Source: Giardia intestinalis (Eukaryota). From it: a stretch of DNA of 64,000 bases. Within the stretch, counting starts at the first letter, position 1. Each line of letters starts with the position of its first letter. The stretch lies in NCBI GenBank assembly GCA_000002435.2, contig CM018791.1, one strand, 5' to 3'. Shown here piece after piece: positions 1-60,983 of this stretch. A program made the translations under genes and the position numbers. The notes under the pieces are model-generated. The model ran no database searches. It saw only the letters and a program-made list of their open reading frames with translations, and was not told the DNA's origin.

Positions 1-2484
1 AGTGAGGCACGCTTCATATGGAGCCAGAATCCGCACACACTCAATATGGCCTGCCTCTGCTGCAACCATCAGTGCCGTTTTGTTACACGAATAGAAGTTG
101 TTCGGATTCGTGTGCACGTAGGCTTGTAGCTTTGCTTCCTCAATAGCAAGAAGGCGGCAGAGCATGGGACGATTATTATAAGCTGCATACATAAGTGCAG
201 AAAACCCGCTAGAGTCGAACCGCTTTGACTGAGTTTGCATGAAGCAGAATGCTCGATATACGTCATTCTCCAGGACAGCATCCATCAGATCTGTGAACCC
301 ACTAGGGTACTTATCAGGAGAACAGAGATGGAAGGTGCTCGTATCAGTACTAACAGTCCCGTCTTGGCTATGTCCTAACTGTAAATCTTTAGACGAGGAC
401 TCTCTGACGTACACTGGCTCTGGACCCTCATAAGGGACAAGCGCCAGGGCAGTTTCCATGTTGTTGACCGCGATGGCCAAGTATAGTGCGTTCCTTCCAT
501 TTTTGTCTGTCATGTTACCTTCGAGAGAGCACAGGAGTTGAAGTAACTCAGAGTTGACGGAAACTTCTTGATGGAAACGACTTCTTTTGAGCCTGCGCAG
601 ATCGGTAGACGTACTTAGTGCCGATGTTGATAAAGCAGTAGTTGAGCGAAGAGTATTATCTGCAGGCGGAGGGAAAGATCGCGTGCTAGATTGGCTGCAC
701 ATGATAGACATATCCGATGGAATGTCTATTGTGCTAGGATATGCTAAATGATAAGCCTCGTACTCGTCCAATGAGACACTCCCCCCAGTAATAGCATAAT
801 GCATAAGCGCTGTTCGACCATTGATGTCACGCATTCCTGCTTCCGACTGCATAAGAAGCTTGCACAACTTAAGGTTGCCAATTGCCGCCGCACGCATAAA
901 GGCGGTCTGCCCTTGATTGTCTGCATACTTACACTGCCGTGGAAGCCATGACCAGACCCCTACAAGGTCATTGTTCTCTGCTGCTCTCATTAAATTTGTA
1001 ACCCCGTTGCCATCTATGTTAGGAGCGCGATTATCTATTCCTTCATACTTCAGGAGAATAGCAGCACATTCAAGATGCTCCAGCTCGAGTGCAAGACTTA
1101 AAGCTGTTGTCCCATCTAGCAAGAAGCAATTACTTTCAAGAGGCGCCAATTCCCTCACAGCATCAATGGCATCCATCTCTACGGCAATCATTAGAGCGGT
1201 CTTGCCTTTCTTGTTTCGTCGTCCTGCATAGCCCTTTAACTTACTTAAGTCGTTGAGACTAGCCTCCTGCACCGCCAGGTGTAGCGGCGTATTTCCATCC
1301 TCGTCAGGACTAACTGGTGCATCCAAAAGAGTAGCCTGTTCAACATCCGGCTCCGTATGCGTATCGACCTTCAGCGATGTCTTGGAAAGCAGCTCGTGAA
1401 GCTTTTGCTCAGACGGAGCTGTGCGTCGGTATATAATTCCCTGGACTTCACGCAGCAGCAATATTTCGGAAGCACTTGGAAGAGGTTTTGCAGGGTCTTT
1501 TGATGTTAGTGAACGCAGAAATGACTGAAAGTTAGAAGAATATGTAACTGGGATATTTCCTGCTTCAGAAAAGGTCGCCAACTCATGCAGTATAATTCCT
1601 GCGTCCCGGATATCATCCTCTGGAGTTATCAAAATAAGCGATTCCGGCTCACCATCTGATACCCCTACCTCTAAATTGCGATACCCACTGAGTAAGGGCA
1701 GACCCACGGTGAGCTCATAGTCTGAACGAGATGAATAGTCGCACACAATAGTTGATGTAGAAAGGTTTCCATGGGGAAGTGGCAACGACTGATGGTTTTC
1801 CCCGGCACCGAATGAATGTCTAGCTCCACTTTTAATCTCCAGGTCCAACGGGCTGTGCATGACGGCAAGAAGGTTGAACAGCTGAGCGGCAATGTCCCAT
1901 AACGTCGACTCACAGATGAGCTGCCCCTTATTCTGGTACATGCTGCATATCTCTTTGAGCGTATGGCCCTTTGGTTCACAGGGTTCATAGCTAGCGGCAA
2001 GATAGTCAGACACAGCCCCAGTAGATGTCAAGAAACCGTCATAGAAGTGATCATATGTTCTAAGGTTCTCGTGTCGAAATAGCTTAAGGTTGTTGTAGCG
2101 CTGTTTTAGGTCGCGCTTGGGGCCCTCTTCCAAACCTTCTATGCAGAATGACACGAAGACGTGTGGTGTACTACTGCTTGGATGTGTACATAAATGTTTT
2201 CCCTGAAGCCCGCGGGTTTCGGTACTGTCAGGAATCAGCTTGTATGGATGCGGGGGCTCGAAGGGTGCAAATACCTTAGGGACATGTGCTTCTGAAGGAG
2301 GCAACTGGTCCTTATCAGAAATATTCTTAACAGATCCCGATTTCTTGGTCTTCTGTAATTTAGAGGGCGCCCTTGCCCCTCCCTTCCCTTTTGAAGCACC
2401 TTTAGCATTCGATTGTCCGCTAGAAGCTTGCTTGGACCCAGCTCTTGAAGAATCCTTGGTTGAGGTAGTCTTCTTTGGCGGCAT
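1..2484 (-). CDS. Ankyrin-repeat protein (Giardia Protein 21.1 / NEK-like pseudokinase family); 3' end truncated by the window edge. Not in the supplied ORF track.
   Basis: Manual minus-strand translation gives 828 uninterrupted codons from ATG at 2484..2482, with an in-frame TGA immediately upstream, down to position 1 without a stop. The N-terminus is basic and low-complexity (MPPKKTTSTKDSS...). A kinase-lobe-like stretch follows (LKEICSMYQNKGQLICESTLWDIAAQLFNLLAVMHS). Ankyrin repeats with the TALM signature then follow (DGNTPLHLAVQEA, GKTALMIAVEMDAIDAVRELAPLE, NGRTALMHYAITGG, NKTALMVAAEAGHIECVRILAPYEA). The ORF track missed it because its stop lies beyond the window start. Confidence 0.8.
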   Translation of the reverse strand, partial: MPPKKTTSTKDSSRAGSKQASSGQSNAKGASKGKGGARAPSKLQKTKKSGSVKNISDKDQLPPSEAHVPKVFAPFEPPHPYKLIPDSTETRGLQGKHLCTHPSSSTPHVFVSFCIEGLEEGPKRDLKQRYNNLKLFRHENLRTYDHFYDGFLTSTGAVSDYLAASYEPCEPKGHTLKEICSMYQNKGQLICESTLWDIAAQLFNLLAVMHSPLDLEIKSGARHSFGAGENHQSLPLPHGNLSTSTIVCDYSSRSDYELTVGLPLLSGYRNLEVGVSDGEPESLILITPEDDIRDAGIILHELATFSEAGNIPVTYSSNFQSFLRSLTSKDPAKPLPSASEILLLREVQGIIYRRTAPSEQKLHELLSKTSLKVDTHTEPDVEQATLLDAPVSPDEDGNTPLHLAVQEASLNDLSKLKGYAGRRNKKGKTALMIAVEMDAIDAVRELAPLESNCFLLDGTTALSLALELEHLECAAILLKYEGIDNRAPNIDGNGVTNLMRAAENNDLVGVWSWLPRQCKYADNQGQTAFMRAAAIGNLKLCKLLMQSEAGMRDINGRTALMHYAITGGSVSLDEYEAYHLAYPSTIDIPSDMSIMCSQSSTRSFPPPADNTLRSTTALSTSALSTSTDLRRLKRSRFHQEVSVNSELLQLLCSLEGNMTDKNGRNALYLAIAVNNMETALALVPYEGPEPVYVRESSSKDLQLGHSQDGTVSTDTSTFHLCSPDKYPSGFTDLMDAVLENDVYRAFCFMQTQSKRFDSSGFSALMYAAYNNRPMLCRLLAIEEAKLQAYVHTNPNNFYSCNKTALMVAAEAGHIECVRILAPYEACLT

Positions 2485-2499
2485 TGTTCAAAGTTTATT

Positions 2500-5400
2500 T
2501 TAAAGAATAGAGGATTGCAAAAGAGAAATGGTACTCTGCAGGTTGACGATTGCAACTTCTGGACATCGCTTAGAGAGAGCTTCTAAGATGAAGCGGGCAT
2601 ACTTCTTCTCTCTCTCCTCAGAAAGTAATAGGGTTACCATCTCGGTATGCCCATGAGTAGATGCATAATAAAGAGCAGAATACTTGCTCTTTTTGAGTAG
2701 GCCAGCTTCATAGGGTAACAGGAGAGACGCCGCTTGGAGGTGTCCGTTCCTGGCTGCGGTCATCAGAGCCGTCCACCCATCCTTCATCTGCACTTGTGCT
2801 TCTGCAGGTATGAGGACACTAACTACCTCATCCATGTTATAGGCCGCTGCGTACATAAGTGCTGTCCAACCCTCTGCATTCTGCATCCGTGCCTCCTTAT
2901 CGATCAAAAGACTTACGGTACTGGCATGCCCGTTGATGGCTGCAGCCATCAATGCTGTTCTTCCCTTTCCGCTATCCTTCATTCGTGCTTCTGGCGTTTC
3001 TGCCAGCGCAACCACAGCACCATCGTATCCGTGAGATGCTGCAATCATCAATGCCGTGACATCTTCCCACAGGACTTTTGTGGCTGGATAAGAGCGCACT
3101 GTTCTCCCTAGTTGAGTAGGGTATTCCCTAATAATGACGTCTACCAAATCTGTAAGGCCAAGCTCAATAACCTGCATCAACACCGTCAATCCATCAAGTT
3201 CCTTAGTTCTGTCTTGCAGGTGAAGAAACCGGAGGATCAGCTCTGGATCTTGTTTCCGAATAGCACGCTGTAGCTGATTCATTCCCTTGTCGTCGAAGAC
3301 CTCCACGATATCAAGCATGTCCACAATTTGGGGGTTTTCCTCACGCCAGTGTTGCTCTAAGAGGGCGCGCGCTGTAGTGCCATCCTTTGCTACTAGATGT
3401 TCTTCGTGCCGTAATTGCAGGATGCAATTTATGTCCCCAAAGATGCATGCATACATTAGCGCAGTATAACCACGTTTGTCTTGCAGACCCAGCTGGAAGC
3501 GATAGGACCATACACCAGGAAGGTCTCCGTTTTCAGCCGCTTGCATAAGCTCCGTGTGTCTACCCTGGATTCGTGAAGCCAAATCAGCATCTGGGTACCC
3601 CTCGTACGGGGTCAGTATTTTAGCGATATTCTCATTCCCGTGCTCTATAGCAACATACAGCGCTGTATAGTATGGTCTGCCATTTGTCAGGGTCTTCTCG
3701 TGTGGTGCCAGAAGCTTGACGGCGGCGCTGTTATTGTATCTAGCCGCCCACATCAGAGCAGTCCTCTGGGTGTCATCATGAAGCCCCTTTTCATGCTCCA
3801 ATAGAAGCGGAATAATAGCAACATCGTCACAGATTGCGGCGATGATTAGAGCCGTTGCACCTGGAACAAAGGGATTTATACTAGAGGTATCTGCTCTACT
3901 AAGAAGGACAGTGTCTGGCAAGGCTTCACTGGTTGCAATAAGGTGCTGCCCAGCCTCCTTTAGGAGTAACTTTACTATATTGTACAATGCATACTCCTGA
4001 TAGGTATCACGCTTTACCCCATTCTGAGCTGCGAAGTACTTAGATGCTGAGGCGTGCATGAGTGCAGTATAACCATCTCCTCCTGTATTTCCCAGTTCAG
4101 AGACCCATAAGAATACTTCGAACTCAAGATAGTTCTCCACAGCATTGAGCAGCCGCTGATAATCATTAGCCACAGCCCTATCTATGCTATCGTCATCACT
4201 ATCTATCTGATATTCTTGTAAAATCAGTGATCGTTCGGCAGCAAATACGACCTCAAAGATGTCTATATTTCTATATAAATAAGCAAGCTCTGATGCGAAC
4301 ACTTTTGCTGATACCACATAATTCCCCTCCAACCCTTTGCTAAAGTATGATTTCCCTTTTTCAAGATCCAAAAGAAGCTGCACAATATCAACAGATCCCA
4401 TCTTCACGGCACGGTGGAGGGCAGTCCTACCAGAGAAGTCCACAACTCCTGCTTCCAGCGGTACCAAAAGCTTAATGATTGCCAGAGACGCCTTACTTTC
4501 CACGGCACACATAAGAGCAGTTCGTCCATTTATGTCCTGCCACTTGTGCTGTCTAGGAAGCCAGGACCACACTGCAACGATGTCTCCTGCTATGGTAGCG
4601 CGCATTAGATCTGTCTGGTTCAAGGCATCGATATGTGGGTCTTTAGTTGAGACACCCTCCACATCCGTAAGTATTCTGGCAACGTCATAATGCTCTGAGT
4701 ACAACGCGTAATATAGAGCAGTATGGCCCTGTTTTGTAAACAATCCACCCTCATGGAAGACAAGAATATTGGCACCATCGCTCCAGCCCTCGATGGCACA
4801 AAGCATGAGGGCCGTGTGTCCATCTTGATTGAACCGTTTGGCATATTCCAAATTACGGCCGACTGCCTCTAAGTCTCTATCCAATACTGCCCGGTGGAGC
4901 ATAGTGTTCCCAACGCTGGCCGACGACAAGTATAATACAGATATGCCTAGGTCAACACTACTATCCATACGGCTTGTCTCGCGCGCAGATGGGTCACGAA
5001 AGACACTTGCTACTCTAGGGTAGCCGGCGCTATTACCTGCTGACATTACAGAGGTATGCTCTGCGAAAATAGAGCTCTCGTTGACGACCAGTAGCTCGCT
5101 AAGGTTCTCTGCATGCTCTTGAACTACGGACCTCGCACTCTGAGAGGTTGCTGCACGTTCTGCAGCTATGGGGTCTGTAACGTGCTTAATGTTCGGCAGC
5201 GAGGCTGCCTCTTTAAGATGACGATAAATCTCTAGAGGTGTGCGCGTCTGTACACTTGCAGATGACTGGCTCCTCTCTCTGAACTCAAGGTGTGTGAATG
5301 GAAGTAGCGCCTCGGTGACTCGTTGGGAAAGTAGCAAATTTGATACAACAGGTTTATCGTGTAGGCAGAGAGAACGAAGGGCCAGAATAAACTGCTTCAG

Positions 5401-6258
5401 ATCAGGAGAAAACCGCCGATGATCTAGAGAGGATAACTCAGCCTGGTAATCCTTTGATTCAAAAGGCTGTACGCCGGATGTACAAAGGTCGCAAAGGAGA
5501 AGTGCAATGATATATATTGAATAGATGTCCTTAGCAAAGGAACTGCTTGATGGATTCATGGATGGAAGGTGGGGTGGAACTAGCTTTATAGTATGAGTGA
5601 CAGGATCATAGAAGATGGTATCCGGCCGTATCCTTCCATGGTTGATTGAAATGGACTGCTCAGATGGGATTCCTGTCTTAATACTACTGTGGAGATAAGA
5701 TAGAACGGATACCAATTGTGCTAAAATGGCCCAAACTTCTTCTTCAGCAAAACTGTATATTGAGGTCTTAGTGATCACAGAATGAACAAGAGCAGAGTGG
5801 TTCGATGACGACAATCCTCCATTCTCTTCGCTAAGATCCTCAATAGTCGTGTCGTTGATGAGGGCCAGAAGCTCGCGCTCTACTTTACTCGCTTCCTCAG
5901 TATGGCTAAGACCATCCATTTCGTCCGCAAACGAGTTCATATCTGCACAGTTCTTACCAAACACATCTTCATTGCTCAGCTCTTTTTGGCCACCAAGGAG
6001 CTTAGCCAAAGACGGAAAGCTGGCCTTCTCCATCCATACCATGAGATTAGATTGACCTGAGCACTGAATGCTAAGGCATCTGAGAAGGTTTCTGTGAGAA
6101 AGGTGCTTTACAAGGGAGAGAAGATCACGGTTTCCCGCAATAGCCACAGCCAGGTCTTCGTCCAGAGCATCTCTACGCAAAATGGCAGAACAAGGCGGAT
6201 CGGCCCACTCGACGATCTGTGTATGGTTCCCAATAACAGTGGCGGGGGTTGTAGCCAT
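2500..6258 (-). CDS. Ankyrin-repeat protein with N-terminal degenerate NEK-like (pseudo)kinase domain
   Basis: 1252-aa ORF with a verified ATG start. The N-terminal ~300 aa show kinase subdomain-like stretches (LVKHLSHRNLLRCLSIQ, VWAILAQLVSVLSYLHSS, INHGRIRPDTIFYDP, IKLVPP) but no VAIK, HRD or DFG. The remainder is more than 20 ankyrin repeats with G(W/R)TALM motifs. Confidence 0.85.
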   Translation of the reverse strand: MATTPATVIGNHTQIVEWADPPCSAILRRDALDEDLAVAIAGNRDLLSLVKHLSHRNLLRCLSIQCSGQSNLMVWMEKASFPSLAKLLGGQKELSNEDVFGKNCADMNSFADEMDGLSHTEEASKVERELLALINDTTIEDLSEENGGLSSSNHSALVHSVITKTSIYSFAEEEVWAILAQLVSVLSYLHSSIKTGIPSEQSISINHGRIRPDTIFYDPVTHTIKLVPPHLPSMNPSSSSFAKDIYSIYIIALLLCDLCTSGVQPFESKDYQAELSSLDHRRFSPDLKQFILALRSLCLHDKPVVSNLLLSQRVTEALLPFTHLEFRERSQSSASVQTRTPLEIYRHLKEAASLPNIKHVTDPIAAERAATSQSARSVVQEHAENLSELLVVNESSIFAEHTSVMSAGNSAGYPRVASVFRDPSARETSRMDSSVDLGISVLYLSSASVGNTMLHRAVLDRDLEAVGRNLEYAKRFNQDGHTALMLCAIEGWSDGANILVFHEGGLFTKQGHTALYYALYSEHYDVARILTDVEGVSTKDPHIDALNQTDLMRATIAGDIVAVWSWLPRQHKWQDINGRTALMCAVESKASLAIIKLLVPLEAGVVDFSGRTALHRAVKMGSVDIVQLLLDLEKGKSYFSKGLEGNYVVSAKVFASELAYLYRNIDIFEVVFAAERSLILQEYQIDSDDDSIDRAVANDYQRLLNAVENYLEFEVFLWVSELGNTGGDGYTALMHASASKYFAAQNGVKRDTYQEYALYNIVKLLLKEAGQHLIATSEALPDTVLLSRADTSSINPFVPGATALIIAAICDDVAIIPLLLEHEKGLHDDTQRTALMWAARYNNSAAVKLLAPHEKTLTNGRPYYTALYVAIEHGNENIAKILTPYEGYPDADLASRIQGRHTELMQAAENGDLPGVWSYRFQLGLQDKRGYTALMYACIFGDINCILQLRHEEHLVAKDGTTARALLEQHWREENPQIVDMLDIVEVFDDKGMNQLQRAIRKQDPELILRFLHLQDRTKELDGLTVLMQVIELGLTDLVDVIIREYPTQLGRTVRSYPATKVLWEDVTALMIAASHGYDGAVVALAETPEARMKDSGKGRTALMAAAINGHASTVSLLIDKEARMQNAEGWTALMYAAAYNMDEVVSVLIPAEAQVQMKDGWTALMTAARNGHLQAASLLLPYEAGLLKKSKYSALYYASTHGHTEMVTLLLSEEREKKYARFILEALSKRCPEVAIVNLQSTISLLQSSIL

Positions 6259-6308
6259 ACAAAAAGACTAGTGCCCGATTTCTAAATCTTTGCGGCGCCA
6301 GCCGAGTC

Positions 6309-6334
6309 CATAAATTAAAAAATACGCTTTCACC
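6309..6334 (+). promoter_or_regulatory. AT-rich initiator-like element immediately upstream of the ATG (Giardia-type minimal promoter)
   Basis: cataaattaaaaaatacgctttcacc directly abuts ATG at 6335. Similar AATTAAAA-like blocks precede the starts at 15445 (ggaaattaaaactc), 42799 (tttaattaaaaaatttatag), 12598 (ttaaaaaataagtacg), 28576 (ttcaatttacataaa) and 57121 on the minus strand. Confidence 0.45.
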
Positions 6335-7018
6335 ATGACAACAAGCTCCCACTACCCCCCTCAATCGGACACGTTTACAACAATAATACACACACATGAG
6401 CCAGAAAACGAATCCTGGACACATCTTGCATCTGCAGCTGCCTCAGGTCATGTCGAATTAGTCAGAAAGTACATGAGAGATAGCCCTCAAATACCAATAG
6501 AGGGACAGATCCACTTCGGCTGGCATGCATTTCCAAAGCCGACGCCTCTTATTTTGGCGGCTGGCCACGGCCACCTTGACTGTGTTCGCTTGCTGATGAA
6601 AGATGGAGCCGGTTCCACCACATCGATGGACCAGACGGCCCTTATGGCAGCATCTGCAGGCTGCTACCCAGATATAGTATCAGAGCTTATGGATAAGGAG
6701 GCAGGCCGGGCTGACAAGAATGGATGGACAGCTCTAATGTACGCCGCTGATAGGGGCTGTGTGCCCGTTTGCCAAATGCTTGTTAAACTAGAAGCAAACC
6801 GAACAAGTTTGCGCTCTGAGACCGCCTTAATTCTTGCCGCGACTACTAACAAGAAGCAGGTAGTGGAGATTCTGGCGCCGTATGAAGCATCAGAAAGCGG
6901 CCTCCTCGCCATGGAGCTTACCTCAGACGAGGAGATCCGCAGAATAATTCACAAATACCTTTCGGATGATGCTATTCAAACTCTTATGGACAATGGGGAT
7001 CAGTACGTCTTTGAATGA
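6335..7018 (+). CDS. Small ankyrin-repeat protein (Protein 21.1-like)
   Basis: 227 aa with ATG at 6335. Repeats include TPLILAAGHGHLDCVRLLMKDGAG, QTALMAASAGCYPDIVSELMDKEAG and GWTALMYAADRGCVPVCQMLVKLEA. An AT-rich initiator (cataaattaaaaaatacgctttcacc) lies directly upstream. Confidence 0.8.
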   Translation: MTTSSHYPPQSDTFTTIIHTHEPENESWTHLASAAASGHVELVRKYMRDSPQIPIEGQIHFGWHAFPKPTPLILAAGHGHLDCVRLLMKDGAGSTTSMDQTALMAASAGCYPDIVSELMDKEAGRADKNGWTALMYAADRGCVPVCQMLVKLEANRTSLRSETALILAATTNKKQVVEILAPYEASESGLLAMELTSDEEIRRIIHKYLSDDAIQTLMDNGDQYVFE

Positions 7019-7080
7019 TTTCTTCGTGCTTCGACGGTAGGTAATGAGCAGTAAACCTCTCTAAAGTTTGAAGAGCTGGC

Positions 7081-8454
7081 TTACTTTAAAATCTCCTGTT
7101 TCAGCTTCTCGACCATATCTTTGTTGGCTAGGAGCTCTTTCTCTAGGGTTGTCAGGCGAGCAAGAATGGTGGGCAAGTCTGCAACCAGTTCTCTGAGATC
7201 ATGCAATCTCCGCGGATTGTCCTCAGCCAGGATCTCTTGCTTCTTGGTAATGACCTTGAGCGTGCCGTCTAGCTCCTTTTGATACTTGATTACACGCAGC
7301 ACTAGTTCCGGGTTAAATACGTTAACCGTTTTGTTCATCTTTGCAATCTTTTCTGCACTGACATTTTGTTTTGCTTCGAGAGCCTTAATGCGGGCCATAA
7401 GCTCAGTGATTAACTTGGCCTGTGCATCTACAGTGTTCTGTAAAGCCACAAGCTCCTGGCGGTTCTCTACTCCCATTGCATGCATGCTTGTTGTTATGGC
7501 ATTGTGCAAAAACCCTGAGCTGATATCTGCGAGCTCTGCTGTTATGGCGGCAGTATCCCACTTAATACCTTGGCCAGGCGCAAGTGCAGGAATAGACTTT
7601 TTTCTGGACAGTGTCGCCTTCCTAGGGTAAGTGGGCTGCTGAACATTTTCCTGGACACTTTCACTGGTAGTGAACTGAATTGCAGATTTCGAACGCGGGA
7701 GAAACTGATGGGTTGCTGATCCTATTGGTATTGCAACAGTGGTGTTGTTAAGGGAGGCCGGAGGCGCTGGTCTCGTATCGGCCTTGGATTTATCGCCAAA
7801 CATGGCCATAAATGAGCCTGCGAAGCTGATTTTCTGGCCTGACTTAGCTGATAGTGGTGGCTGATAGGTCCTCGATGACTTATTGGGGGGAGATGGTGCT
7901 ACTGAATCAGTAAGGGGGGTGTCTTGAAGTAAAAGAGGCACAGTGTCGAAGAGTTCGCTTTGGAGGGCAGTAATACTGTCGTCGTCTTTGTAACATCTGA
8001 CGCTACTGGCGACACTGTTGGTCTCGCTAACTGAATCGTTGGGGCTGGTGAGGAGTACATGCTTACTGGGTCTACTTTCAATGGCAGTCACACCATCTGC
8101 TGCTAGCACAACTGAGCCAGGCGGTGAAGCAACAGGGGGCCCCTCCCTTGCCGTGCTAACCGGACCGATGGCGTTCAATCTGGTATCCAGTGACGTTGGT
8201 GGTTTTCTTCGCCTGAATGGCTTCTGCTGCATGTCAACACCTAGGGAATTGTTGCAATGAGAGTAGTGACTCTGACTTTGCGTCAAGTTAGAGAGATAGA
8301 TACTGTCAGATGAACTCAAATCATTGAACATGCCTATGCCTGCGGAAGCTGTGTTACTTAATTGAGCAGCCGACTCATCAATTTTGATGGTAGGGCCCTC
8401 ATAATTTGCATAGGATGAAGATAGGGTAGGGTTAGGTGGGGCAAATTTAAGCAT
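7081..8454 (-). CDS. Hypothetical protein, Ser/Thr/Pro-rich with C-terminal coiled coil
   Basis: 457 aa with a verified ATG. The first two-thirds are low-complexity. The C-terminal 150 aa have heptad character (LITELMARIKALEAKQNVSAEKIAKMNK ... LEKELLANKDMVEKLKQEILK). No recognised catalytic motif. Confidence 0.6.
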   Translation of the reverse strand: MLKFAPPNPTLSSSYANYEGPTIKIDESAAQLSNTASAGIGMFNDLSSSDSIYLSNLTQSQSHYSHCNNSLGVDMQQKPFRRRKPPTSLDTRLNAIGPVSTAREGPPVASPPGSVVLAADGVTAIESRPSKHVLLTSPNDSVSETNSVASSVRCYKDDDSITALQSELFDTVPLLLQDTPLTDSVAPSPPNKSSRTYQPPLSAKSGQKISFAGSFMAMFGDKSKADTRPAPPASLNNTTVAIPIGSATHQFLPRSKSAIQFTTSESVQENVQQPTYPRKATLSRKKSIPALAPGQGIKWDTAAITAELADISSGFLHNAITTSMHAMGVENRQELVALQNTVDAQAKLITELMARIKALEAKQNVSAEKIAKMNKTVNVFNPELVLRVIKYQKELDGTLKVITKKQEILAEDNPRRLHDLRELVADLPTILARLTTLEKELLANKDMVEKLKQEILK

Positions 8455-8616
8455 TAAATTTTAGCACACGGTGTTCAGAACTTCTACAAAGCCCTTACTG
8501 CCCGGACCTAAAATTAGGTTTAAGAAGTCAGCCTGGCGCTCGCTTCAAAAAATAACTTAAGACATACTTTTGGGTTCTAAGGGCGAAATCTTTGGCTTTT
8601 TCACCGTCGATTCTCC

Positions 8617-9951
8617 ATGTCGCGTAGAGCAGCGATCAGTTACCTCCAGCCTGCAAAGCGCATACGTCCGTCTGCATTTAACATTAATTATTTGGAGCAA
8701 AACAAGAGCTATGGAGTGAGTACAGCCCCGCCTCTATTATCTCACCGAAGGCTATCACTGCGTCTGGAGTCCGATGAGGAGAGTAGCTCTGCACACAGTC
8801 AGTTCTCTTTGCCAAATAGTCCTACAAATTTTGCTCTGCTAGGATCAGAGGATAGTCAAGCTGCAAGCGAATACGATAGCAGACATCCGAAGCATACATG
8901 TTCCTTTCAAAAGCATAAGCAATCAAACACTTCGAAAAAGCCTGCACATACGTCTCCGCTGGCTTTACGCCACCCCCCTCACATACTTAAAACTCAATGG
9001 ATCAGCCGTTCAGCTCCCGTTTTGCCCAAGCTCCATCCGCCGACCGCCGTATCTTCTCATTCCAAGCCAGACCCAGCAACTACCTTTGCATCCAAATACA
9101 ACAAGGGAATGATCTTAGACTTCGGTGCATATGCAAAGGTGTATCGTTGCACACGAAAGTCTGACGGTGCAGCCCTCGCTGTGAAGGAGGCGCACGTGTT
9201 CGGCCCCTACAAGGAACAGCTCCTCCATTCTTGCAATATATTGCTCAATATTGACCATCCCCTCTTGACAAGAGTTGTGGACTATATCTATGACAGCACC
9301 GAGGAGAGGGTCTACGTCATCTCTGACCTGTATGAATATGGCTCGGTTTACTCCAAGCTTAAGGCCGAGAGGAGGAACTACAGCACAAGCTATCCTGATG
9401 AAAGAGTAGTCTGGGATATATCTTCGCAGCTGATCGACGCCCTTGAGTTTCTTCACAACCCTGAGAAAAATGGGTTTGGTGTAATCGTACATAGAGACAT
9501 TTCCCTGAAGAATATATTGGTTAGTGATATCGTTACAAAAAAGATAATAGTCATTCTATCTATCCTGGCTGTCGAGCTTGTCGGTAACTCGAAGACAGTA
9601 CAGCTGGTTGGCTGTCCCACATACGCAGCCCCAGAAGTGCTCTGCGGGTCGGAGTATGACGAAAAGGCTGACATTTGGTCTCTAGGGTGTGCTATCTATG
9701 AGGTGTGCAAAGGATATCAGCTGTTTTATAACGAGGCAATATCAGATATTATCAGAGCGCAGTACAGTAAGCCTGCAATCAACCTTGGGGTATATAGTGA
9801 GGATCTTCAGGAGTTCATCAAATCTCTGCTTGTGCTGGATCCGAATAAGCGTATTACCGCCAGTGAGGCTGCTAAGCACCCTAAGGTTATGGAAGCCAGA
9901 CAGCGCCTGGATTCTGGAGCTTCTGCAGGGTATGGGTGGTTCACCGGATGA
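8617..9951 (+). CDS. NEK-like protein kinase, probably a pseudokinase
   Basis: 444 aa with ATG at 8617. Has the VAIK-type lysine (LAVKEA), the catalytic loop (VHRDISLKNILV) and the APE region (TYAAPEV ... DIWSLGCAIYEV). The Gly-loop is degenerate (FGAYAKVY) and the DFG position reads ILSILAVELVG. The N-terminal 150 aa are low-complexity. Confidence 0.8.
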   Translation: MSRRAAISYLQPAKRIRPSAFNINYLEQNKSYGVSTAPPLLSHRRLSLRLESDEESSSAHSQFSLPNSPTNFALLGSEDSQAASEYDSRHPKHTCSFQKHKQSNTSKKPAHTSPLALRHPPHILKTQWISRSAPVLPKLHPPTAVSSHSKPDPATTFASKYNKGMILDFGAYAKVYRCTRKSDGAALAVKEAHVFGPYKEQLLHSCNILLNIDHPLLTRVVDYIYDSTEERVYVISDLYEYGSVYSKLKAERRNYSTSYPDERVVWDISSQLIDALEFLHNPEKNGFGVIVHRDISLKNILVSDIVTKKIIVILSILAVELVGNSKTVQLVGCPTYAAPEVLCGSEYDEKADIWSLGCAIYEVCKGYQLFYNEAISDIIRAQYSKPAINLGVYSEDLQEFIKSLLVLDPNKRITASEAAKHPKVMEARQRLDSGASAGYGWFTG

Positions 9952-9956
9952 TGTGT

Positions 9957-10451
9957 CTAGACTATCGCCTTGGCCACGATTGGCAGCAGCATGGAATATG
10001 GGAGGCGTCTCTGCATGGCTGAAAAGCCGGACTCATATGCTGTCAAGAGCGTCTTGTCCAGGATGCGCTCTGGGTCATGCCAGTACGTCTTAGCGAAGGA
10101 TCGTACCCCTGCCTCGAGGAAGTTAATAGCGCTCGTCACGGTAATGTAAGGAGGAAGGGGAGATGAGAATACCCGTGAGCGCTGAGTGCCTGGAACGGGG
10201 TGTAGCCCCTGGGACCTTCTCAAATTATTCTCTGTTTCAAGGAGATCACGGACATGTAAATCTTCAAAGAGAGCGTAGTTGGCATTTCCGCAGCCAGGAT
10301 GTTTGGCCATGCGAGGATCATGGCAGATCTTGGGGGTCTCAAGAAAGTCAATCATGAGGCTAGATTTAAATAATTCTTCATGCCCCCGAAAGATATCACA
10401 GGATACAGTAGTAATCAGAAGGCAAAAGAGGACGCAAATCCTCTCCCACAT
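9957..10451 (-). CDS. Hypothetical protein (164 aa from the first ATG; the open frame extends to a GTG at 10607)
   Basis: 216-codon open frame in a 430-bp gap that otherwise has no long ORF. The track start at 10607 is GTG, and the first ATG is at 10451. No recognised domain. The 5' end overlaps the start of the + strand gene at 10380 by about 70 nt. Confidence 0.35.
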   Translation of the reverse strand: MWERICVLFCLLITTVSCDIFRGHEELFKSSLMIDFLETPKICHDPRMAKHPGCGNANYALFEDLHVRDLLETENNLRRSQGLHPVPGTQRSRVFSSPLPPYITVTSAINFLEAGVRSFAKTYWHDPERILDKTLLTAYESGFSAMQRRLPYSMLLPIVAKAIV

Positions 10452-38678: not shown

Positions 38679-41474
38679 ATGTCCAATGCCCAACTCCTTT
38701 GGTTTAATGCTGTCACATGCAATAGGATCGATGACGTTCGATATCATCTTCCCAAGTATGCAAAGACGTTTAATGAGCAGTCTGAGACTGCTCTTATGAT
38801 TGCTGTGCGACTGAATAACCTAGAGATGGCTACGATCCTGGCGGATACAGAAGCGACACTGACCAACTCTGATGGTCGTACTGCTCTCATGATAGCTGCT
38901 ATCTGCGGTCATGTCGAGATGGCGCGTCTTTTAGTAGAGCGGGAAGCACGAATTCAAGACAACTGTGGGATGACCGCGCTCATGTTTGCCATCCTTTGTG
39001 AGAATAAGCACGTAGTAGAGCTATTAGCTAGTTATGAATCAGGATTGTCGACACTGAAAGAGGTCATGGTAGGTCACCTTGATGATAATTATCTTGAACG
39101 AGAAGACAATGGCACGGATACACTTTCTGACAGCTCTTCTGTCCTATCTGCTCAAACACCTACATCCGTTACGTCAGACCGAGGAAGACGGAAAGTCGTT
39201 GTGCAACGAAAGAGGTTATCATGTAGCAGACACATAGCCCCATACTACTCTGTGCCCATAGGATACACGTCATTGCTATTTGCTATTCTATGCAAAGATG
39301 CCTACTCGGTGCAGCTTTTGAACTCAGAGCACCACATTTTAGTCTATGATCGACACAGGGATAGATTTATTACCCCATCCATTCTTGCCGTAGAACTAGG
39401 GCATATGGAGGTACTCAAAAGCCTTACCAGCCATGGACCAAGTCCTCTAACGGAGTCTGGACACTGTGCCCTGTACGTAGCTATTTTGCAAGGAAATATA
39501 GAGTGCATATCGCTGTTGTATGAATGCGAGAAGCACCTTCTTTCAGATGAGCGTATCTGCATGTCATCGGCGATGATTTGGTTAATAGAAAAGATAGTCG
39601 CATGTAATCCTACTTGCGAAGGCAATCCAATCTTCGTAGAATTTTTAAATAATTTGTTTAAATCAGATAACGCTCGGGAAAAAGACAGCCATGGAATGAC
39701 TCTTTTGCTAATGGGTGCAGCACTAAACTTACCTTGGCTTGTCCAGGCAATTCTAGACAGTGTTCCGGAAGCACTATGTGATACTGACAGTCAAGGGTGG
39801 ACTGCACTTCACTACGCAGCGGCAGCAGATAGTGTTGATACGGGGAAGTTGCTGCAGAAGAAACTCATAGGCAGCGTCGATATAAAAGGTTGTACGTCTC
39901 TTATGATTGCTGCTAAGCATGGCAGTTCTTCCATGATTAAGAGTCTTCGAAATGAAAGCACGCTGATTGACAGGCAAGGCCAAAGCGCCCTCATGCTACT
40001 TATCCAGGGAGCAGCTTCTTGTCCATGGCGGGAGCGACAAATTACAATACTAGAATCAGCACAATACATTCTTGAGGAGGAGGCAGGAATAATTAACGGT
40101 GCCTCGCGATCGGCTCTCATGCTTTCTGTCTGGCATCGGTTTTATGATCTAGCTCTCCGACTGACCGCCTATGAGAAGGGTCATCAAGATAAAAGCGGAC
40201 ACACAGCACTAATATTAGCTGTATACGTTGATTGTAGTAACGCTACACTACTTGAACGACTCAGCCAGATAGAGTCGTCACTAAGATTAAGCAATCAGTT
40301 TGGAGGCGGGAAAAGCCCTCTAATGCTTGCTATAGAGCGAGAAGCAAATCCTGTGCTACTGGATATCTTGTTGAAAAGCCAGCTTGCAACTGGCTTGATT
40401 GATGCAGCAGGCTGTAGTGCACTTATGTATGCCATAGAAAAGAAAAACACTGACCTAGGGCTACAGCTTGCACATGTTCCGGCCGAGCTAGGGCATGCAT
40501 GCTTTGCCAAAAGACAGACTGCTTTGATGAAGGCCATTCTTTCTAAACTAGATGATGTCGCAATTGTGCTTGCTTCTCGTGCGCTTGAGCTGCACAAGCA
40601 AGACTATAAAGGAAGAACGGCTCTGATGCATGCAATCGACTCTAAAAATGAAACGCTCGCCCTCATTTTGGCAGAGTCAGAGCAGAACCATCGTGACATC
40701 AACGGCAAAACAGCTCTTATTCATGCAATAGAAAGGAAGCCATCCCTCCTTTATAGGCTTAGACTGTGGGACGAGGTGCTATTATCTGATAACGATGGGC
40801 TAACACCCCTAGATTATGTAAAGCGACATCGCTCTGAACTGGTGCAGGTCAGAAATAGGCATACTAAAGCGGTTTCCACTCACAGCCTCACCGTTGACTT
40901 AATTGTGCACGGCATGGGAACACCGCTTACAGATCCCGTGAAGACATACAAGTACTTTAAGCAATACATGTACCGGGCCTATGACCGCATGGCCCTCTTT
41001 GCACGTCGGTTACTTACACGCCGGCAGGTCGATCGACATGCTAATGTCAGCAGAGAACATCTGACTAGTGGCTTGTCAGACAACACAGGTGTCGCTATTT
41101 CCCCGGCTCTAAGTCACAACATCATGCTCCAAGAAAGCCCAGTCATAAGCCAATGGTCCACGGGAATATTTCAGATAGCGAATATACTACTAGATATATT
41201 TGAATACGATTGGAATCAGCAGGTGTTTTGGGCCGATATCCCCAGCCTGCTTGATGAGTATTTGCAGACAATCAGAGCAATCGAAGGCAGTCACACTCTT
41301 AGAGATGATGAGCTCTATGAAGATTTTTGTTGTATCTGCATGGATGCTCCTGTGAAGACAGTCTTGATGCCGTGTAGACATGCCGTCCTGTGCGAGCATT
41401 GCAGCCTCAACATAAAAAAGATGTGCCCCATCTGTCGCCATACAGTCACTGATACGATAGAAATAGACCCATAA
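38679..41474 (+). CDS. Ankyrin-repeat protein with C-terminal C3HC4 RING finger (putative E3 ubiquitin ligase)
   Basis: 931 aa with ATG at 38679. More than 15 ankyrin repeats (SETALMIAVRLNNLEMATILADTEA, GRTALMIAAICGHVEMARLLVEREA, GMTALMFAILCENKHVVELLASYESG ...). The C-terminus CCICMDAPVKTVLMPCRHAVLCEHCSLNIKKMCPICRH matches a C3HC4 RING of the MIB/IAP-like short type. Confidence 0.85.
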   Translation: MSNAQLLWFNAVTCNRIDDVRYHLPKYAKTFNEQSETALMIAVRLNNLEMATILADTEATLTNSDGRTALMIAAICGHVEMARLLVEREARIQDNCGMTALMFAILCENKHVVELLASYESGLSTLKEVMVGHLDDNYLEREDNGTDTLSDSSSVLSAQTPTSVTSDRGRRKVVVQRKRLSCSRHIAPYYSVPIGYTSLLFAILCKDAYSVQLLNSEHHILVYDRHRDRFITPSILAVELGHMEVLKSLTSHGPSPLTESGHCALYVAILQGNIECISLLYECEKHLLSDERICMSSAMIWLIEKIVACNPTCEGNPIFVEFLNNLFKSDNAREKDSHGMTLLLMGAALNLPWLVQAILDSVPEALCDTDSQGWTALHYAAAADSVDTGKLLQKKLIGSVDIKGCTSLMIAAKHGSSSMIKSLRNESTLIDRQGQSALMLLIQGAASCPWRERQITILESAQYILEEEAGIINGASRSALMLSVWHRFYDLALRLTAYEKGHQDKSGHTALILAVYVDCSNATLLERLSQIESSLRLSNQFGGGKSPLMLAIEREANPVLLDILLKSQLATGLIDAAGCSALMYAIEKKNTDLGLQLAHVPAELGHACFAKRQTALMKAILSKLDDVAIVLASRALELHKQDYKGRTALMHAIDSKNETLALILAESEQNHRDINGKTALIHAIERKPSLLYRLRLWDEVLLSDNDGLTPLDYVKRHRSELVQVRNRHTKAVSTHSLTVDLIVHGMGTPLTDPVKTYKYFKQYMYRAYDRMALFARRLLTRRQVDRHANVSREHLTSGLSDNTGVAISPALSHNIMLQESPVISQWSTGIFQIANILLDIFEYDWNQQVFWADIPSLLDEYLQTIRAIEGSHTLRDDELYEDFCCICMDAPVKTVLMPCRHAVLCEHCSLNIKKMCPICRHTVTDTIEIDP

Positions 41475-41518
41475 GCGACTACTACCAGATACTCATCAAA
41501 TCCAGTAAAATAAATCAA

Positions 41519-42661
41519 ATGCTTCAGTTTTCGTCTGCAGAGGACCTGCGCACAAAGCTGACTCTCGCGACGATCGCAAGCAAGCACATTACAATAGAGA
41601 CACCCGGCTTGCGTTTAGAGGAGCATGAAGTAGCGTTTGCCAAGTTGATATGCGGTATTTCAGATGGAACAAGCCTGACCGTTTCTCCTACAGGGACTAG
41701 GATGGTTTTTAAGCCTGGCATGCTTCGCGGTGGTGACGTGACGTTCTCTTGCCCGCTGGAACGCGGTGTGGGCTACTATCTGGAGTATTTCGTTTTAATT
41801 GCAATGTTCTGCAAGTTTCAACTACGATTGACCCTTACGGGCGTAACGAATGACAATTACACACTTTCTGTAGACACGATAAGGGATGTAACCATTCCTC
41901 AAATAGCATTTTTCTGCGCTGACAAAGACGACATTTATCTGGATGTTAAGTCTCGTGGGTTCATGCCTGGAGGGGGAGGAGAAGTCACTCTTGTAGCTCG
42001 GCCACAGGACAAGCTAAAATCTGTCGACTACAGTAAGCTGTCGATTTTCGAAGAGGTGCGCGGGTGCTGTGTCTCAGCTAACCTGCCAACCGCCCTCCCC
42101 AACCGTGCAATCACTGCTGCAAAGGGTGAGATTCTAAAGGTCCTCGCAAACGTCCACGTGGCAGCAGACTATTGTCAGAAGAGACGCAGTGGGAACAGTC
42201 GCGGCTTTGGACTATCTCTCTGGGCAAAAACATACTCTGGAGCACTGGTCAGCGCAGACCTCTTCACAGATACTGTCACAGAGGATCTTGCTGATCCGGA
42301 GGCCATGGGGCTGTTTGTTGCACGGGTGCTCTTGCGGGAAATTCAGTACATGGGGGCTCCTGACCTTAGGCATCAGCCAATTATTCTGCTGTTCATGGCG
42401 TGTACCATTGAAGATGTGTCTAAGTGCAGGCTTGGACCGCTAACAGAGCGTTCTGTGCGGACTCTGCGTTTAATCTACGAGATATTAGGTGTGCGGTTTT
42501 CGCTGGAACCAGTCACAATTGCATTTGAAGAGGATTATGTCAGCGAAAAGGAGTGGCGAAGTGATAATGCACGAGATATAATGAAGACTAAGACCCTCGA
42601 TTTTGTCATTGCCATGTGCAGGGGAGCTGGAATTCGCAATATTAATAAGATGGGCTTCTGA
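41519..42661 (+). CDS. RNA 3'-terminal phosphate cyclase family protein (RCL1-like)
   Basis: 380 aa with ATG at 41519. The family pattern is LRTKLTLATIASKHITIETPGLRLEEHEVAFAKLICGISDGTSLTVSPTGTRMVFKPGMLRGGDVTFSCPLERGVGYYLEYFVLIAMFCKFQLRLTLTGVTN. The match is to the RtcA/RCL1 fold, and the size fits RCL1 (ribosome biogenesis). Confidence 0.8.
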   Translation: MLQFSSAEDLRTKLTLATIASKHITIETPGLRLEEHEVAFAKLICGISDGTSLTVSPTGTRMVFKPGMLRGGDVTFSCPLERGVGYYLEYFVLIAMFCKFQLRLTLTGVTNDNYTLSVDTIRDVTIPQIAFFCADKDDIYLDVKSRGFMPGGGGEVTLVARPQDKLKSVDYSKLSIFEEVRGCCVSANLPTALPNRAITAAKGEILKVLANVHVAADYCQKRRSGNSRGFGLSLWAKTYSGALVSADLFTDTVTEDLADPEAMGLFVARVLLREIQYMGAPDLRHQPIILLFMACTIEDVSKCRLGPLTERSVRTLRLIYEILGVRFSLEPVTIAFEEDYVSEKEWRSDNARDIMKTKTLDFVIAMCRGAGIRNINKMGF

Positions 42662-57121: not shown

Positions 57122-57747
57122 AGTTCACAGAAAGAATTGGCTTTTTCTTTTAAATTTCTGGGAGCTGGTTTGTCAGCTGTTGTTCGAGTAAACTTATCAG
57201 GCAAGTCGTCGTGCTGAGTGGGATTCTCTCTCAGTCCATCTATCCAAAGTTCAAAATTCAAATTTCATCCAGTTTTGGGAAGAGGAGGAGCTAGTTGGCT
57301 CGTGAGCATGTCGATAGAGACGACTCGAAGCGGGATCCGGCAGACACTTGGCGGGATGATGGTACTGCAGGCGAAGAGAGCCCTCGCGCTCGCCACCCCA
57401 ATCGATCTCCCTACTAAAGAGCAAGCATGTGGCTGACTCCTAAAACGGCTGCCGCTATCACTGAACCCTCTCCCCAGCTGGGCTAGTCGTCAAATGGGAA
57501 GTGGCTCATGAACGCATCACCTCGCCTTTGGGGGCCCGATTCACCTCTACTGTATCGTCCATGGCGCTAAGATTTATGGAAGACACGCCTGCTCCAACAT
57601 CCCCAGGACGCTGAGAGAGATCAGAAGGCCTTCCAAGTCCTCTGGAGGCGTTTAGATGCAACTCCTAGCTCTTGCTCTCGGGAGACCTCGATAGGGATCA
57701 GCAACCAACACGTAGACTGCGACCTATGTAATCAAGACCTGGAACAG

Positions 57748-58167
57748 ATGGCCTTCGTTATCGACAAGACAAGAACAGGTGATGGAGCTCCGTTCTCCCC
57801 GGATCCTGTGCTCCAGAGGAGGCAGGGCTTCCAGTCACTGACTGCCCCGACAGGAGTCATGCGTCTGCTGATGCTTTGTGAGGACCGCATGGACTCCGAC
57901 TCGTGCCTATACACTGTGGATGCTGTGGGTCTCTCGAGGGAGATGCTCCGACGCCATAACAAGAACAGAAGCCTCAGGTGCACATGTGAGAGCTTGACAC
58001 GGGATATAGAGCTGATTCAGGCCTCATCTAAGAACCTGGGGGCGTTTCACACGCTGGAGGATACCAGGATTGGGGGAATCCCCATCGTCTGTTGCCCCAA
58101 ATGCTTCAGCACCAGAATGGCGAGTAGGAGACATCTGGCTAAAACGAAACACTCTGTGCTGATGTGA
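57748..58167 (+). CDS. Possible small hypothetical protein (139 aa) with C-terminal Cys/His cluster; may be part of a decayed element
   Basis: ATG at 57748. The protein-like composition ends in IVCCPKCFSTRMASRRHLAKTKH. It lies at the edge of the GC-rich island and is followed by frame-hopping ORFs. No AT-rich initiator upstream. Low confidence. Confidence 0.2.
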   Translation: MAFVIDKTRTGDGAPFSPDPVLQRRQGFQSLTAPTGVMRLLMLCEDRMDSDSCLYTVDAVGLSREMLRRHNKNRSLRCTCESLTRDIELIQASSKNLGAFHTLEDTRIGGIPIVCCPKCFSTRMASRRHLAKTKHSVLM

Positions 58168-60875: not shown

Positions 60876-60983
60876 GAGTGCAGTCCAGCCGTTCTTGTCC
60901 TGGAGGCCCCTCTCCTCCCCAACAAGCAACTCGACGGGACTGATGCGCCCCTGCTCGTCGCGCTGACCAACACCAAGTCTTCT

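What the first reader, a model, noticed from the sequence alone, without database searches (positions are those of the whole stretch)
1..2484. An 828-codon ankyrin/NEK-family gene running off the left edge is absent from the ORF track
The track shows only sub-110-aa ORFs in the first 2.5 kb. That would be an implausible 2.5-kb gene desert in an otherwise saturated region. Manual translation of the minus strand from ATG 2484 gives an uninterrupted frame to position 1 with clear TALM ankyrin repeats and a kinase-lobe-like stretch. The track evidently requires a stop inside the window, so genes clipped at the edges are invisible. The upstream gene 2500..6258 is in the same frame but separated by two stops (TAA, then TGA three codons later) and 18 nt. 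The promoter of the downstream gene must therefore overlap the last codons of the upstream gene. An AT-rich run tattctttaaataaactttgaaca straddles that stop.
Basis: seen in the sequence. Interest (0 to 1): 0.55.

Follow-up and report, generated by a model that had tools for sequence, protein, structure and literature searches.

The report
Edge-clipped Giardia dead-NEK ankyrin gene
The "missing" gene is real but ordinary: it is the first 828 codons of Giardia intestinalis WB gene GL50803_6342, an already catalogued catalytically dead NEK kinase with an ankyrin-repeat tail, and the ORF list missed it only because the gene runs off the window edge.

Summary
The minus strand from ATG 2484 to base 1 is open for 828 codons, with a chance probability of about 3e-19. 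The ORF lister drops any ORF that runs off the window, so the "gene desert" is a tool artefact.

The 828 residues match the start of XP_001709872.1 / A8B1Z9 exactly. That protein is 1287 aa, "Ankyrin repeat protein 1" (formerly Protein 21.1), from G. intestinalis WB. The stop codon lies 1380 nt beyond the left edge of the window.

Manning et al. 2011 already list this gene as GL50803_6342 = GK442, "Dead Nek - missing K72, D166", with 19 ankyrin repeats.

My own tests agree:
- Pfam ankyrin scores E 4.6e-39.
- Pfam Pkinase gives no hit.
- Profile-profile comparison with Giardia NEK kinase domains gives 97.6% probability.
- The AlphaFold model matches human NEK2 and NEK7 best.
- The catalytic Lys is Val111 and HRD is HGN.
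- dN/dS is 0.08 overall and 0.13 in the dead kinase domain, so the gene is under purifying selection.

The upstream gene (2500..6258) is a paralogous dead Nek, GK280. The spacer is 15 nt, not 18. A conserved 11-nt A/T run straddles the upstream stop codon, which fits the known Giardia AT-rich initiator. Promoter overlap with the upstream gene is therefore plausible but untested.

Verdict: already known, low interest.

The parts
1..2484 (-). Codons 1-828 of the 1287-codon gene GL50803_6342 (GK442; XP_001709872.1 / A8B1Z9). The remaining 459 codons and the stop lie 1380 nt left of the window.
   Evidence: Open frame. Zero differences from the first 828 aa of P0044. Window 1..10000 is 100% identical to locus L002, which holds the whole gene.
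2245..2484 (-). N-terminal basic, Ser/Lys/Gly-rich low-complexity segment (aa 1-80). Residues 1-68 have pI 10.5.
   Evidence: Composition. Lies outside the kinase-domain boundaries given by Manning et al.. dN/dS 0.10 between WB and P15.
1456..2244 (-). Degenerate NEK-like pseudokinase domain (aa 81-343, YKLIPD...ASEILL).
   Evidence: hhalign 97.6%, E 2.7e-12 against Giardia NEK kinase domains. AF2 pLDDT 74 / pTM 0.74 with NEK2 and NEK7 as top PDB matches. Kinase-domain boundaries from Manning 2011 Additional file 1. No Pfam Pkinase hit.
2152..2154 (-). Codon for Val111, which sits where the ATP-anchoring Lys (PKA K72, VAIK motif) would be.
   Evidence: Same pairing in hhalign and MAFFT. Manning: 'missing K72'.
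1744..1776 (-). Catalytic-loop remnant PHGNLSTSTIV (aa 237-247). HRD has become HGN, and the Lys and Asn of HRDxKxxN have become Ser and Thr.
   Evidence: Alignments. Invariant H170-G171-N172 in the orthologue alignment A1. Manning: 'missing D166'.
1573..1617 (-). Retained structural motif DDIRDAGIILHELAT (aa 290-304), which corresponds to DIWALG...ELC of subdomain IX / helix F.
   Evidence: Alignments. This segment has the highest pLDDT in the model.
1..1305 (-). The part of the TALM-type ankyrin-repeat array that lies in the window (aa 394-828). The array continues to about aa 1240 outside the window.
   Evidence: Pfam Ank_2 4.6e-39, Ank 1.6e-23. TALM and variant motifs. 19 repeats in the full protein according to Manning.
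565..780 (-). Ser/Thr-rich insert (aa 569-640) that interrupts the ankyrin array.
   Evidence: Composition: 15 S and 8 T in 72 aa. No ankyrin alignment across it in BLASTP against paralogues.
2485..2499 (-). 15-nt spacer between the stop of the upstream gene and ATG 2484. It contains a second in-frame stop, TGA, at 2488..2490.
   Evidence: Sequence. 9 of 15 columns are invariant across four lineages, against 26% of four-fold degenerate sites in the CDS (binomial P = 0.005).
2494..2504 (-). 11-nt A/T run TTTAAAATAAA straddling the upstream stop codon TAA (2500..2502). It is the candidate initiator-like promoter element of GL50803_6342, and possibly also part of the 3'-end signal of the upstream gene.
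   Evidence: Conserved as TAAAATAAAC / TAAATTAAAT / AAAAATAAAC in P15, B-like and ERR3333381 lineages. 17 of 27 gene starts in the window have an A/T run of at least 6 in -30..-1, against 18% of 2367 control ATGs. Function is inferred from the literature, not measured.
2500..6258 (-). Upstream tandem paralogue, 1252 aa (XP_001709874.1). It is GK280 in Manning 2011: 'Dead Nek - missing K72, D166, D184', 16 ankyrin repeats.
   Evidence: It is the best-scoring paralogue of GK442 among those tested (239 bits, 35% global identity).

Best explanation
Window 1..2484 (minus strand) holds the first 828 of 1287 codons of Giardia intestinalis WB gene GL50803_6342.

Shown here:
- It is a genuine gene under purifying selection.
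- Its product has a basic low-complexity N-terminus (aa 1-80).
- It has a strongly degenerate NEK-type protein-kinase domain (aa 81-343). That domain keeps the fold and the C-lobe structural motifs but has lost the ATP-anchoring Lys (Val111) and the catalytic Asp (HRD is HGN), and the DFG motif is not recognisable.
- It has a long array of Giardia-type 'TALM' ankyrin repeats.

Inferred:
- The protein cannot phosphorylate anything. It most likely acts as a non-catalytic scaffold or targeting protein. The ankyrin array would bind partners or place the protein at a particular cytoskeletal structure, as shown for other Giardia Neks. The dead kinase domain would serve as a binding module.
- The gene has its own tiny promoter. 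An A/T-rich initiator-like element sits 10-20 nt upstream of the ATG on top of the stop codon of the upstream paralogue. Any further upstream element would lie inside that paralogue's last codons.

The gene was absent from the ORF track only because the ORF lister omits ORFs that run off the window.
For: - Open frame: 828 codons, chance about 3e-19.
- Identity: exact match to the WB protein XP_001709872.1 / A8B1Z9, 1287 aa. The whole gene and its stop are seen in L002, which is 100% identical to window 1..10000.
- Prior listing: GL50803_6342 = GK442, Nek-Unclassified, 1:1:1 orthology, 'Dead Nek - missing K72, D166', 19 Ank repeats, in Manning et al. 2011 Additional file 1 (PMC3218828).
- Ankyrin: Pfam Ank_2 E 4.6e-39.
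- Kinase fold: hhalign 97.6% / E 2.7e-12 against Giardia NEK kinase domains. The AF2 model from orthologues only has NEK7 as top hit, and all top 50 hits are kinases. The AF2 model from 12 sequences has pLDDT 74 and pTM 0.74, with NEK2, NEK7 and NEK1 as the top hits at TM 0.5-0.66.
- Catalytic residues: replaced in two independent alignments.
- Selection: dN/dS between WB and P15 is 0.079 overall, 0.126 in the pseudokinase domain and 0.04-0.06 in the ankyrin blocks. The ORF is intact in five lineages.
- Promoter: the A/T element is conserved beyond the synonymous-site background, similar A/T runs sit upstream of most genes in the window, and the published promoter architecture fits.
Against: - Pfam Pkinase and a sequence-profile search of the PDB do not detect the kinase domain. 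The fold assignment therefore rests on profile-profile comparison, predicted structure and a published curated alignment.
- The better AF2 model used an alignment that contained true kinases, which may bias it toward that fold.
- My alignments put Leu-Pro-Leu at the DFG position, whereas Manning et al. count D184 as present. That position is ambiguous.
- No localisation, interaction or expression data for this particular gene were found, so the scaffold role is by analogy.
- No transcription-start or poly(A) data for this junction could be retrieved.
Confidence: 0.93

Rival explanations
1. The protein is a plain ankyrin-repeat ('Protein 21.1' / 'Ankyrin repeat protein 1') protein, and its N-terminal 390 aa is not kinase-related. 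This is what the current public product names imply.
For: The public names carry no kinase term. Pfam Pkinase gives no hit at E<=10. The PDB sequence profile gives no hit.
Against: hhalign gives 97.6% over 218 columns against Giardia NEK kinase domains. Both AF2 models retrieve only protein kinases, with NEKs on top. Motif-by-motif correspondence covers HPNIL, helix E, the HxN catalytic loop, DIWxxG and PSAxELL. The gene is in the curated kinome as GK442.
Confidence: 0.03
2. The kinase domain is still catalytically active through a non-canonical active site, as in WNK-type kinases where the Lys has moved.
For: Manning et al. note that some divergent Giardia pseudokinases 'might have cryptic active sites'. 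The domain is under purifying selection (dN/dS 0.13).
Against: Several catalytic residues are lost together: the K72 equivalent is Val, HRD is HGN, the catalytic-loop Lys and Asn are Ser and Thr, DFG and APE are not alignable, and the Gly-rich loop is reduced to GLQGK. Purifying selection is equally expected for a binding module.
Confidence: 0.04
3. The two same-frame tandem genes (2500..6258 and 1..2484) are expressed as one unit, either as a read-through fusion protein or as a polycistronic transcript, rather than from a separate promoter.
For: In WB the genes share a frame and lie only 15 nt apart. The next gene downstream overlaps GL50803_6342 by ATGA in all lineages examined. The median Giardia 3' UTR is 80 nt, so the upstream transcript probably runs into the downstream gene.
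Against: Two in-frame stops (TAA, TGA) separate the genes. The shared frame is not conserved: the P15 upstream ORF overlaps by 40 nt in another frame, and the B-like lineage has a 10-nt gap. The A/T initiator-like element is conserved at the usual distance from the ATG. Giardia mRNAs have 1-14 nt 5' UTRs and its ribosomes do not scan.
Confidence: 0.03
4. The open frame is a decaying pseudogene or a chance ORF.
For: None beyond its absence from the ORF track.
Against: The chance probability is about 3e-19. The 1276-1287-aa ORF is intact in five lineages, with dN/dS 0.06-0.08 while dS exceeds 0.5.
Confidence: 0.005

Closest known systems
Giardia Nek kinase expansion, 'Dead Nek' class with TALM-ankyrin repeats (Manning et al. 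2011, Genome Biol 12:R66). This very gene is GK442 / GL50803_6342.
   Same: It is the same gene. It has an N-terminal kinase-like domain followed by TALM-ankyrin repeats, K72 and D166 are missing, and it has 1:1:1 orthologues in WB, GS and P15. My alignments, models and selection analysis agree.
   Different: Nothing substantive. My alignments do not recover a DFG Asp, whereas the catalogue counts D184 as present.
Giardia Protein 21.1 / 'Ankyrin repeat protein 1' family
   Same: The public product names of this gene and its orthologues belong here. It has the same TALM-ankyrin arrays.
   Different: Protein 21.1 is defined as lacking the N-terminal kinase domain. This member has a cryptic one. 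It may be one of the 20 former 21.1 proteins that Manning et al. reassigned to the Neks. I did not confirm its earlier WB annotation; only the P15 orthologue was seen labelled 'Protein 21.1'.
Human NEK2, NEK7 and NEK1 kinase domains (PDB 5m57, 9nfq_C, 4apc)
   Same: They are the best structural matches to the predicted aa 69-374 domain: Foldseek E about 1e-9, TM 0.5-0.66, same order of secondary-structure elements.
   Different: Sequence identity is only 14-18%. The human enzymes are active and keep VAIK, HRD and DFG, while this domain has lost them. It also carries a 29-aa low-confidence segment after helix E (aa 211-239 of the protein) that extends into the HGN motif. No human NEK carries such an ankyrin array.
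Giardia core promoter (AT-rich Inr at the start site plus a TATA-like element about 30 bp upstream; Elmendorf 2001, Yee 2000, Teodorovic 2007, Tolba 2013)
   Same: An 11-nt A/T run lies 10-20 nt upstream of the ATG. This fits 5' UTRs of 1-14 (under 20) nt and initiation inside the proximal AT-rich patch.
   Different: The 15-nt head-to-tail gap is shorter than the 30-177 bp called typical. The Inr-like run therefore overlaps the upstream stop codon, and any TATA-like element must be coding sequence. Not verified by transcript mapping here.

Membership tests
Ankyrin-repeat proteins (Pfam Ank clan) | Significant match to the ankyrin repeat HMMs above the curated cut-off | tested here: met
   Ank_2 133.3 bits (cut-off 27.3), E 4.6e-39. 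Ank, Ank_3, Ank_4 and Ank_5 are all above cut-off.
Giardia TALM-ankyrin (TA) repeat subclass | Repeats begin with a TALM tetrapeptide (Manning 2011) | tested here: met
   Exact TALM at aa 429, 558 and 803 in the window part, and six in the full protein. Variants TPLH, TAFM, TDLM and SALM sit at repeat spacing.
Eukaryotic protein kinase fold | Match to the Pfam Pkinase / PK_Tyr_Ser-Thr HMM | tested here: not met
   No kinase family reported for aa 1-388 even at E<=10. The PDB sequence-profile search also found nothing.
Eukaryotic protein kinase fold | Profile-profile homology to bona fide kinase domains, and a bilobal kinase architecture | tested here: met
   hhalign 97.6%, E 2.7e-12, 218 columns. 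AF2 pLDDT 74 / pTM 0.74 with beta1-5, helix C and helices D-I in canonical order. Of the 2,000 candidates aligned, 1893 PDB matches reach E<=1e-3, and all top 50 are kinases.
Catalytically competent protein kinases | K72 (VAIK Lys), D166 (HRD Asp) and D184 (DFG Asp) are present | tested here: not met
   The K72 position is Val111. HRD is H238-G-N240. The DFG position aligns to L-P-L in my alignments, while Manning counts D184 as present.
NEK (NIMA-related) kinase family | The kinase domain groups with NEKs rather than with other kinase families | tested here: inconclusive
   The best structural matches are NEK2, NEK7 and NEK1. The closest sequence relatives with a detectable kinase domain are Giardia NEKs. 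The kinome catalogue classes it as Nek-Unclassified. No phylogeny was built here, and the domain is too divergent for one to be decisive.
Giardia AT-rich initiator promoters | Transcription starts inside an AT-rich patch within about 20 nt of the ATG | not testable with these tools
   The sequence element is present and conserved. The TSS-seq and poly(A) supplements held in the library do not list this gene.

The most novel reading that the evidence does not exclude
The head-to-tail trio GK280, GL50803_6342 and GL50803_6341 could be expressed in a coupled way. The first two genes are 15 nt apart. The second and third overlap by ATGA, and that overlap is conserved in all four lineages. One conserved A/T element might act at once as stop-codon context, as 3'-end signal for the upstream dead Nek, and as initiator for the downstream one. 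Alternatively the trio could be a true polycistronic unit with termination-reinitiation. The latter would be unexpected in an organism thought to use only monocistronic mRNAs with 1-14 nt leaders.
Probability: 0.05. Interest if true: 0.45.

Novelty: already known. Interest (0 to 1): 0.08.

Why it matters
It matters mainly as quality control for the scan. ORF tracks that require an in-window stop hide edge-clipped genes, so apparent "gene deserts" at window ends should be re-translated before being flagged.

Biologically the gene is one of about 140 catalogued dead Neks of Giardia. Their function is still obscure as a class, but this member adds nothing new.

Two small observations may be useful. 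First, current public product names ("Ankyrin repeat protein 1", "Protein 21.1") hide the pseudokinase domain, which only profile-profile or structure-based methods reveal. Second, that domain is under clear purifying selection, which argues for a non-catalytic function.

Tried and rejected
- Pfam Pkinase on aa 1-388 at E<=10: no kinase hit.
- Profile of five orthologues against all PDB sequences: no hit.
- First AF2 run with orthologues only: low confidence (pLDDT 55). It was repeated with a 12-sequence alignment.
- Literature search for GL50803_6342 by identifier, and for '6342' with Giardia: nothing gene-specific.
- Supplements of the TSS-seq paper (PMC3792122) and the poly(A)-tag paper (PMC3610916): no entry for 6341, 6342 or 6343. 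Only the neighbour GL50803_6344 was found, and the files are truncated as stored.
- Read-through fusion of the two same-frame genes: rejected because of two in-frame stops and because the shared frame is not conserved in P15 or the B-like lineage.
- Pseudogene: rejected by dN/dS.
- Rfam scan of the whole window: no hit.
- GC-rich ORF-poor stretch at 57.3-60.2 kb: Pfam, a YxDD search, a self-BLAST and a gene look-up gave no explanation.
Full report
**1. Observation**

Translating the reverse strand of window 1..2484 gives 828 codons without a stop, beginning MPPKKTTSTKDS at ATG 2484..2482. The other five frames of the same stretch hold 24 to 66 stops. With the window's base composition, 828 open codons have a chance probability of about 2.7e-19.

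The ORF lister shows only ORFs of 110 aa or fewer here. Its description states that ORFs running off either end are not listed.

The upstream ORF 2500..6258 (-) ends with TAA at 2502..2500. The sequence then reads AAT AAA CTT TGA ACA ATG. This is the same frame, with a second in-frame stop and a 15-nt spacer.

**2. Identity**

A protein search returns near-identical 1276-1287-aa proteins from Giardia, among them 'Protein 21.1 [Giardia lamblia P15]' at 91% identity.

The cluster of the best hit contains XP_001709872.1 / KAE8302896.1 / UniProt A8B1Z9, 'Ankyrin repeat protein 1' of G. intestinalis WB clone C6. Its first 828 residues are identical to the window translation.

A contig carrying that exact protein (L002) is 100% identical to window 1..10000. 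It shows the rest of the gene: 459 further codons and a TGA stop, 1380 nt beyond the window's left edge.

Neighbouring window ORFs match consecutive WB accessions KAE8302895-KAE8302900, including GL50803_006341 and GL50803_006345. One neighbour, GL50803_6344, is placed at CH991782:457345-458028 in Franzén et al. 2013. By inference this anchors the window at CH991782 + 451,010.

**3. Domain content**

Pfam finds ankyrin repeats from about aa 395 onward (Ank_2 E 4.6e-39). Exact TALM motifs lie at aa 429, 558 and 803, with variants at repeat spacing.

Pfam finds no kinase domain in aa 1-388 even at E<=10. A profile of five orthologues finds nothing among PDB sequences.

More sensitive tests do support a kinase domain:
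- A profile-profile comparison of the orthologue N-termini (A1) with five Giardia NEK kinase domains (A2) gives 97.6% probability, E 2.7e-12, over 218 columns.
- An AlphaFold model from orthologues alone is weak (pLDDT 55). Even so, it retrieves only protein kinases from the PDB, with human NEK7 first.
- A model from a 12-sequence alignment reaches pLDDT 74 and pTM 0.74, with the canonical order of strands and helices. It retrieves NEK2, NEK7 and NEK1 as the dominant top matches, at E about 1e-9 and TM 0.5-0.66. That alignment contained true kinases, which may bias the second model.

The alignments give the following residue correspondences:

| Kinase element | State in this protein |
|---|---|
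| K72 (VAIK Lys) | Val111 |
| HRDxKxxN | H238-G-N-L-S-T-S-T |
| DFG, APE | no recognisable counterpart |
| HPNIL-like | FRHENL, retained |
| helix E | LWDIAAQLFNLLAVMHS, retained |
| DIWxxG | DDIRDAGIILHELAT, retained |
| PSAxELL | PSASEILL, retained |

**4. Prior knowledge**

Manning et al. 2011 (PMC3218828) describe 198 Giardia Neks. About 70% lack catalytic residues, and 67% have an N-terminal kinase domain followed by TALM-ankyrin repeats. The authors report that 20 proteins annotated as Protein 21.1 hide very divergent kinase domains.

[quoted passage not shown] The kinase domain is given as YKLIPD...ASEILL.

Other genes in the window are also catalogued:
- The upstream gene is GK280, 'Dead Nek - missing K72, D166, D184', 16 repeats.
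- The 444-aa ORF at 8617..9951 is GL50803_6346 = GK309.

**5. Is it functional?**

The ORF is intact in five lineages: WB, another assemblage-A isolate, P15, an assemblage-B-like metagenome contig, and ERR3333381.

| Region (WB vs P15) | Nei-Gojobori dN/dS |
|---|---|
| Whole gene | 0.079 |
| Pseudokinase domain | 0.126 |
| Ankyrin blocks | 0.04-0.06 |

dS for this pair is 0.56. The dead kinase domain is thus maintained by selection, which argues for a non-catalytic role.

By analogy with other Giardia Neks, the most likely role is a scaffold or targeting protein. In those Neks, localisation is specific and deleting an ankyrin repeat relocalises a dead Nek. No data specific to this gene were found.

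GK442 and GK280 are each other's best paralogue among those tested, at 239 bits and 35% global identity. This suggests an old tandem duplication.

**6. The junction**

An 11-nt A/T run, TTTAAAATAAA (2494..2504), straddles the upstream stop codon.

The tandem arrangement is conserved, but the upstream stop moves:
- In P15 the upstream ORF overlaps the downstream gene by 40 nt, in another frame.
- In the B-like lineage there is a 10-nt gap.
- In the ERR3333381 lineage there is a 3-nt gap.

The shared frame in WB is therefore incidental, and a read-through fusion is unlikely.

The A/T element itself is conserved. Nine of the 15 spacer columns are invariant, against 26% of four-fold degenerate sites in the gene (P = 0.005).

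In the window, 17 of 27 gene starts have an A/T run of at least 6 in -30..-1, against 18% of 2367 control ATGs.

The literature gives 5' UTRs of 1-14 nt, an AT-rich consensus at the start site, a TATA-like element about 30 bp upstream, head-to-tail gaps of 30-177 bp as typical, and a median 3' UTR of 80 nt.

It is also ordinary for Giardia. It remains unverified for this locus, because the TSS and poly(A) tables held in the library do not list it.

**7. Verdict**

The gene is already annotated and already classified as a dead Nek. The only lessons are methodological: edge-clipped ORFs are invisible to the track, and Pfam Pkinase misses these domains. Novelty: already known. Interest: low.

Noticed in passing
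window 57300-60200: A stretch of about 3 kb has GC 0.54-0.69 against a background of about 0.47. It has 27-34 stops in every frame and no open stretch longer than 206 codons, which is odd for so gene-dense a genome. There is no Pfam hit beyond noise, no Rfam hit, no reverse-transcriptase YxDD motif, and no copy elsewhere in the window. Its 139-aa ORF is not on record as a called gene.
   Followed up: partly
L002 11861-11864 (1377-1380 nt left of window base 1); also L005 8346-8349, L006 5181-5184, L007 8020-8023: The TGA stop of GL50803_6342 overlaps the ATG of the next gene, GL50803_6341 (139 aa, hypothetical), as ATGA. This 4-nt overlap is kept in all four lineages examined. The promoter of that gene must lie wholly inside the C-terminal coding sequence of 6342, and that tail shows the highest dN/dS of the gene (0.14-0.55).
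   Followed up: partly
window 2500-6258 (-) and 1-2484 (-): The two tandem genes are both catalogued dead Neks (GK280 and GK442). They are each other's best-scoring paralogue among those tested (BLASTP 239 bits, 35% global identity, colinear), which suggests an ancient tandem duplication retained in all assemblages.
   Followed up: yes
window 6335-7018 (+), 8617-9951 (+), 60246-60929 (-), 60984-62135 (-), 62442-63116 (-): The window is rich in the same family. It holds a 227-aa Protein 21.1 (GL50803_6344; FPKM 234, 3' UTR 44 nt in Franzén 2013) and GL50803_6346 / GK309 ('Dead Nek - missing D184'). It also holds a 383-aa ORF with a clear Pfam Pkinase hit (E 1.9e-25, HCDLRP catalytic loop) and two short ankyrin ORFs.
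   Followed up: partly
window 41475-41518: Another head-to-tail pair (38679..41474 and 41519..42661, both +) is separated by 44 nt containing CCAGTAAAATAAATCAAATG. Here an AGTAAA-type 3'-end signal and the A/T initiator-like run of the next gene appear to be the same element. This is the same arrangement proposed for the 2485-2504 junction.
   Followed up: no
L005 4501-4540 (P15 orthologous junction): In assemblage E (P15) a 1-nt difference removes the TAA used in WB. The called upstream ORF then runs 40 nt into the downstream gene in another frame, so the position of the upstream stop is evolutionarily fluid while the A/T element is kept.
   Followed up: yes
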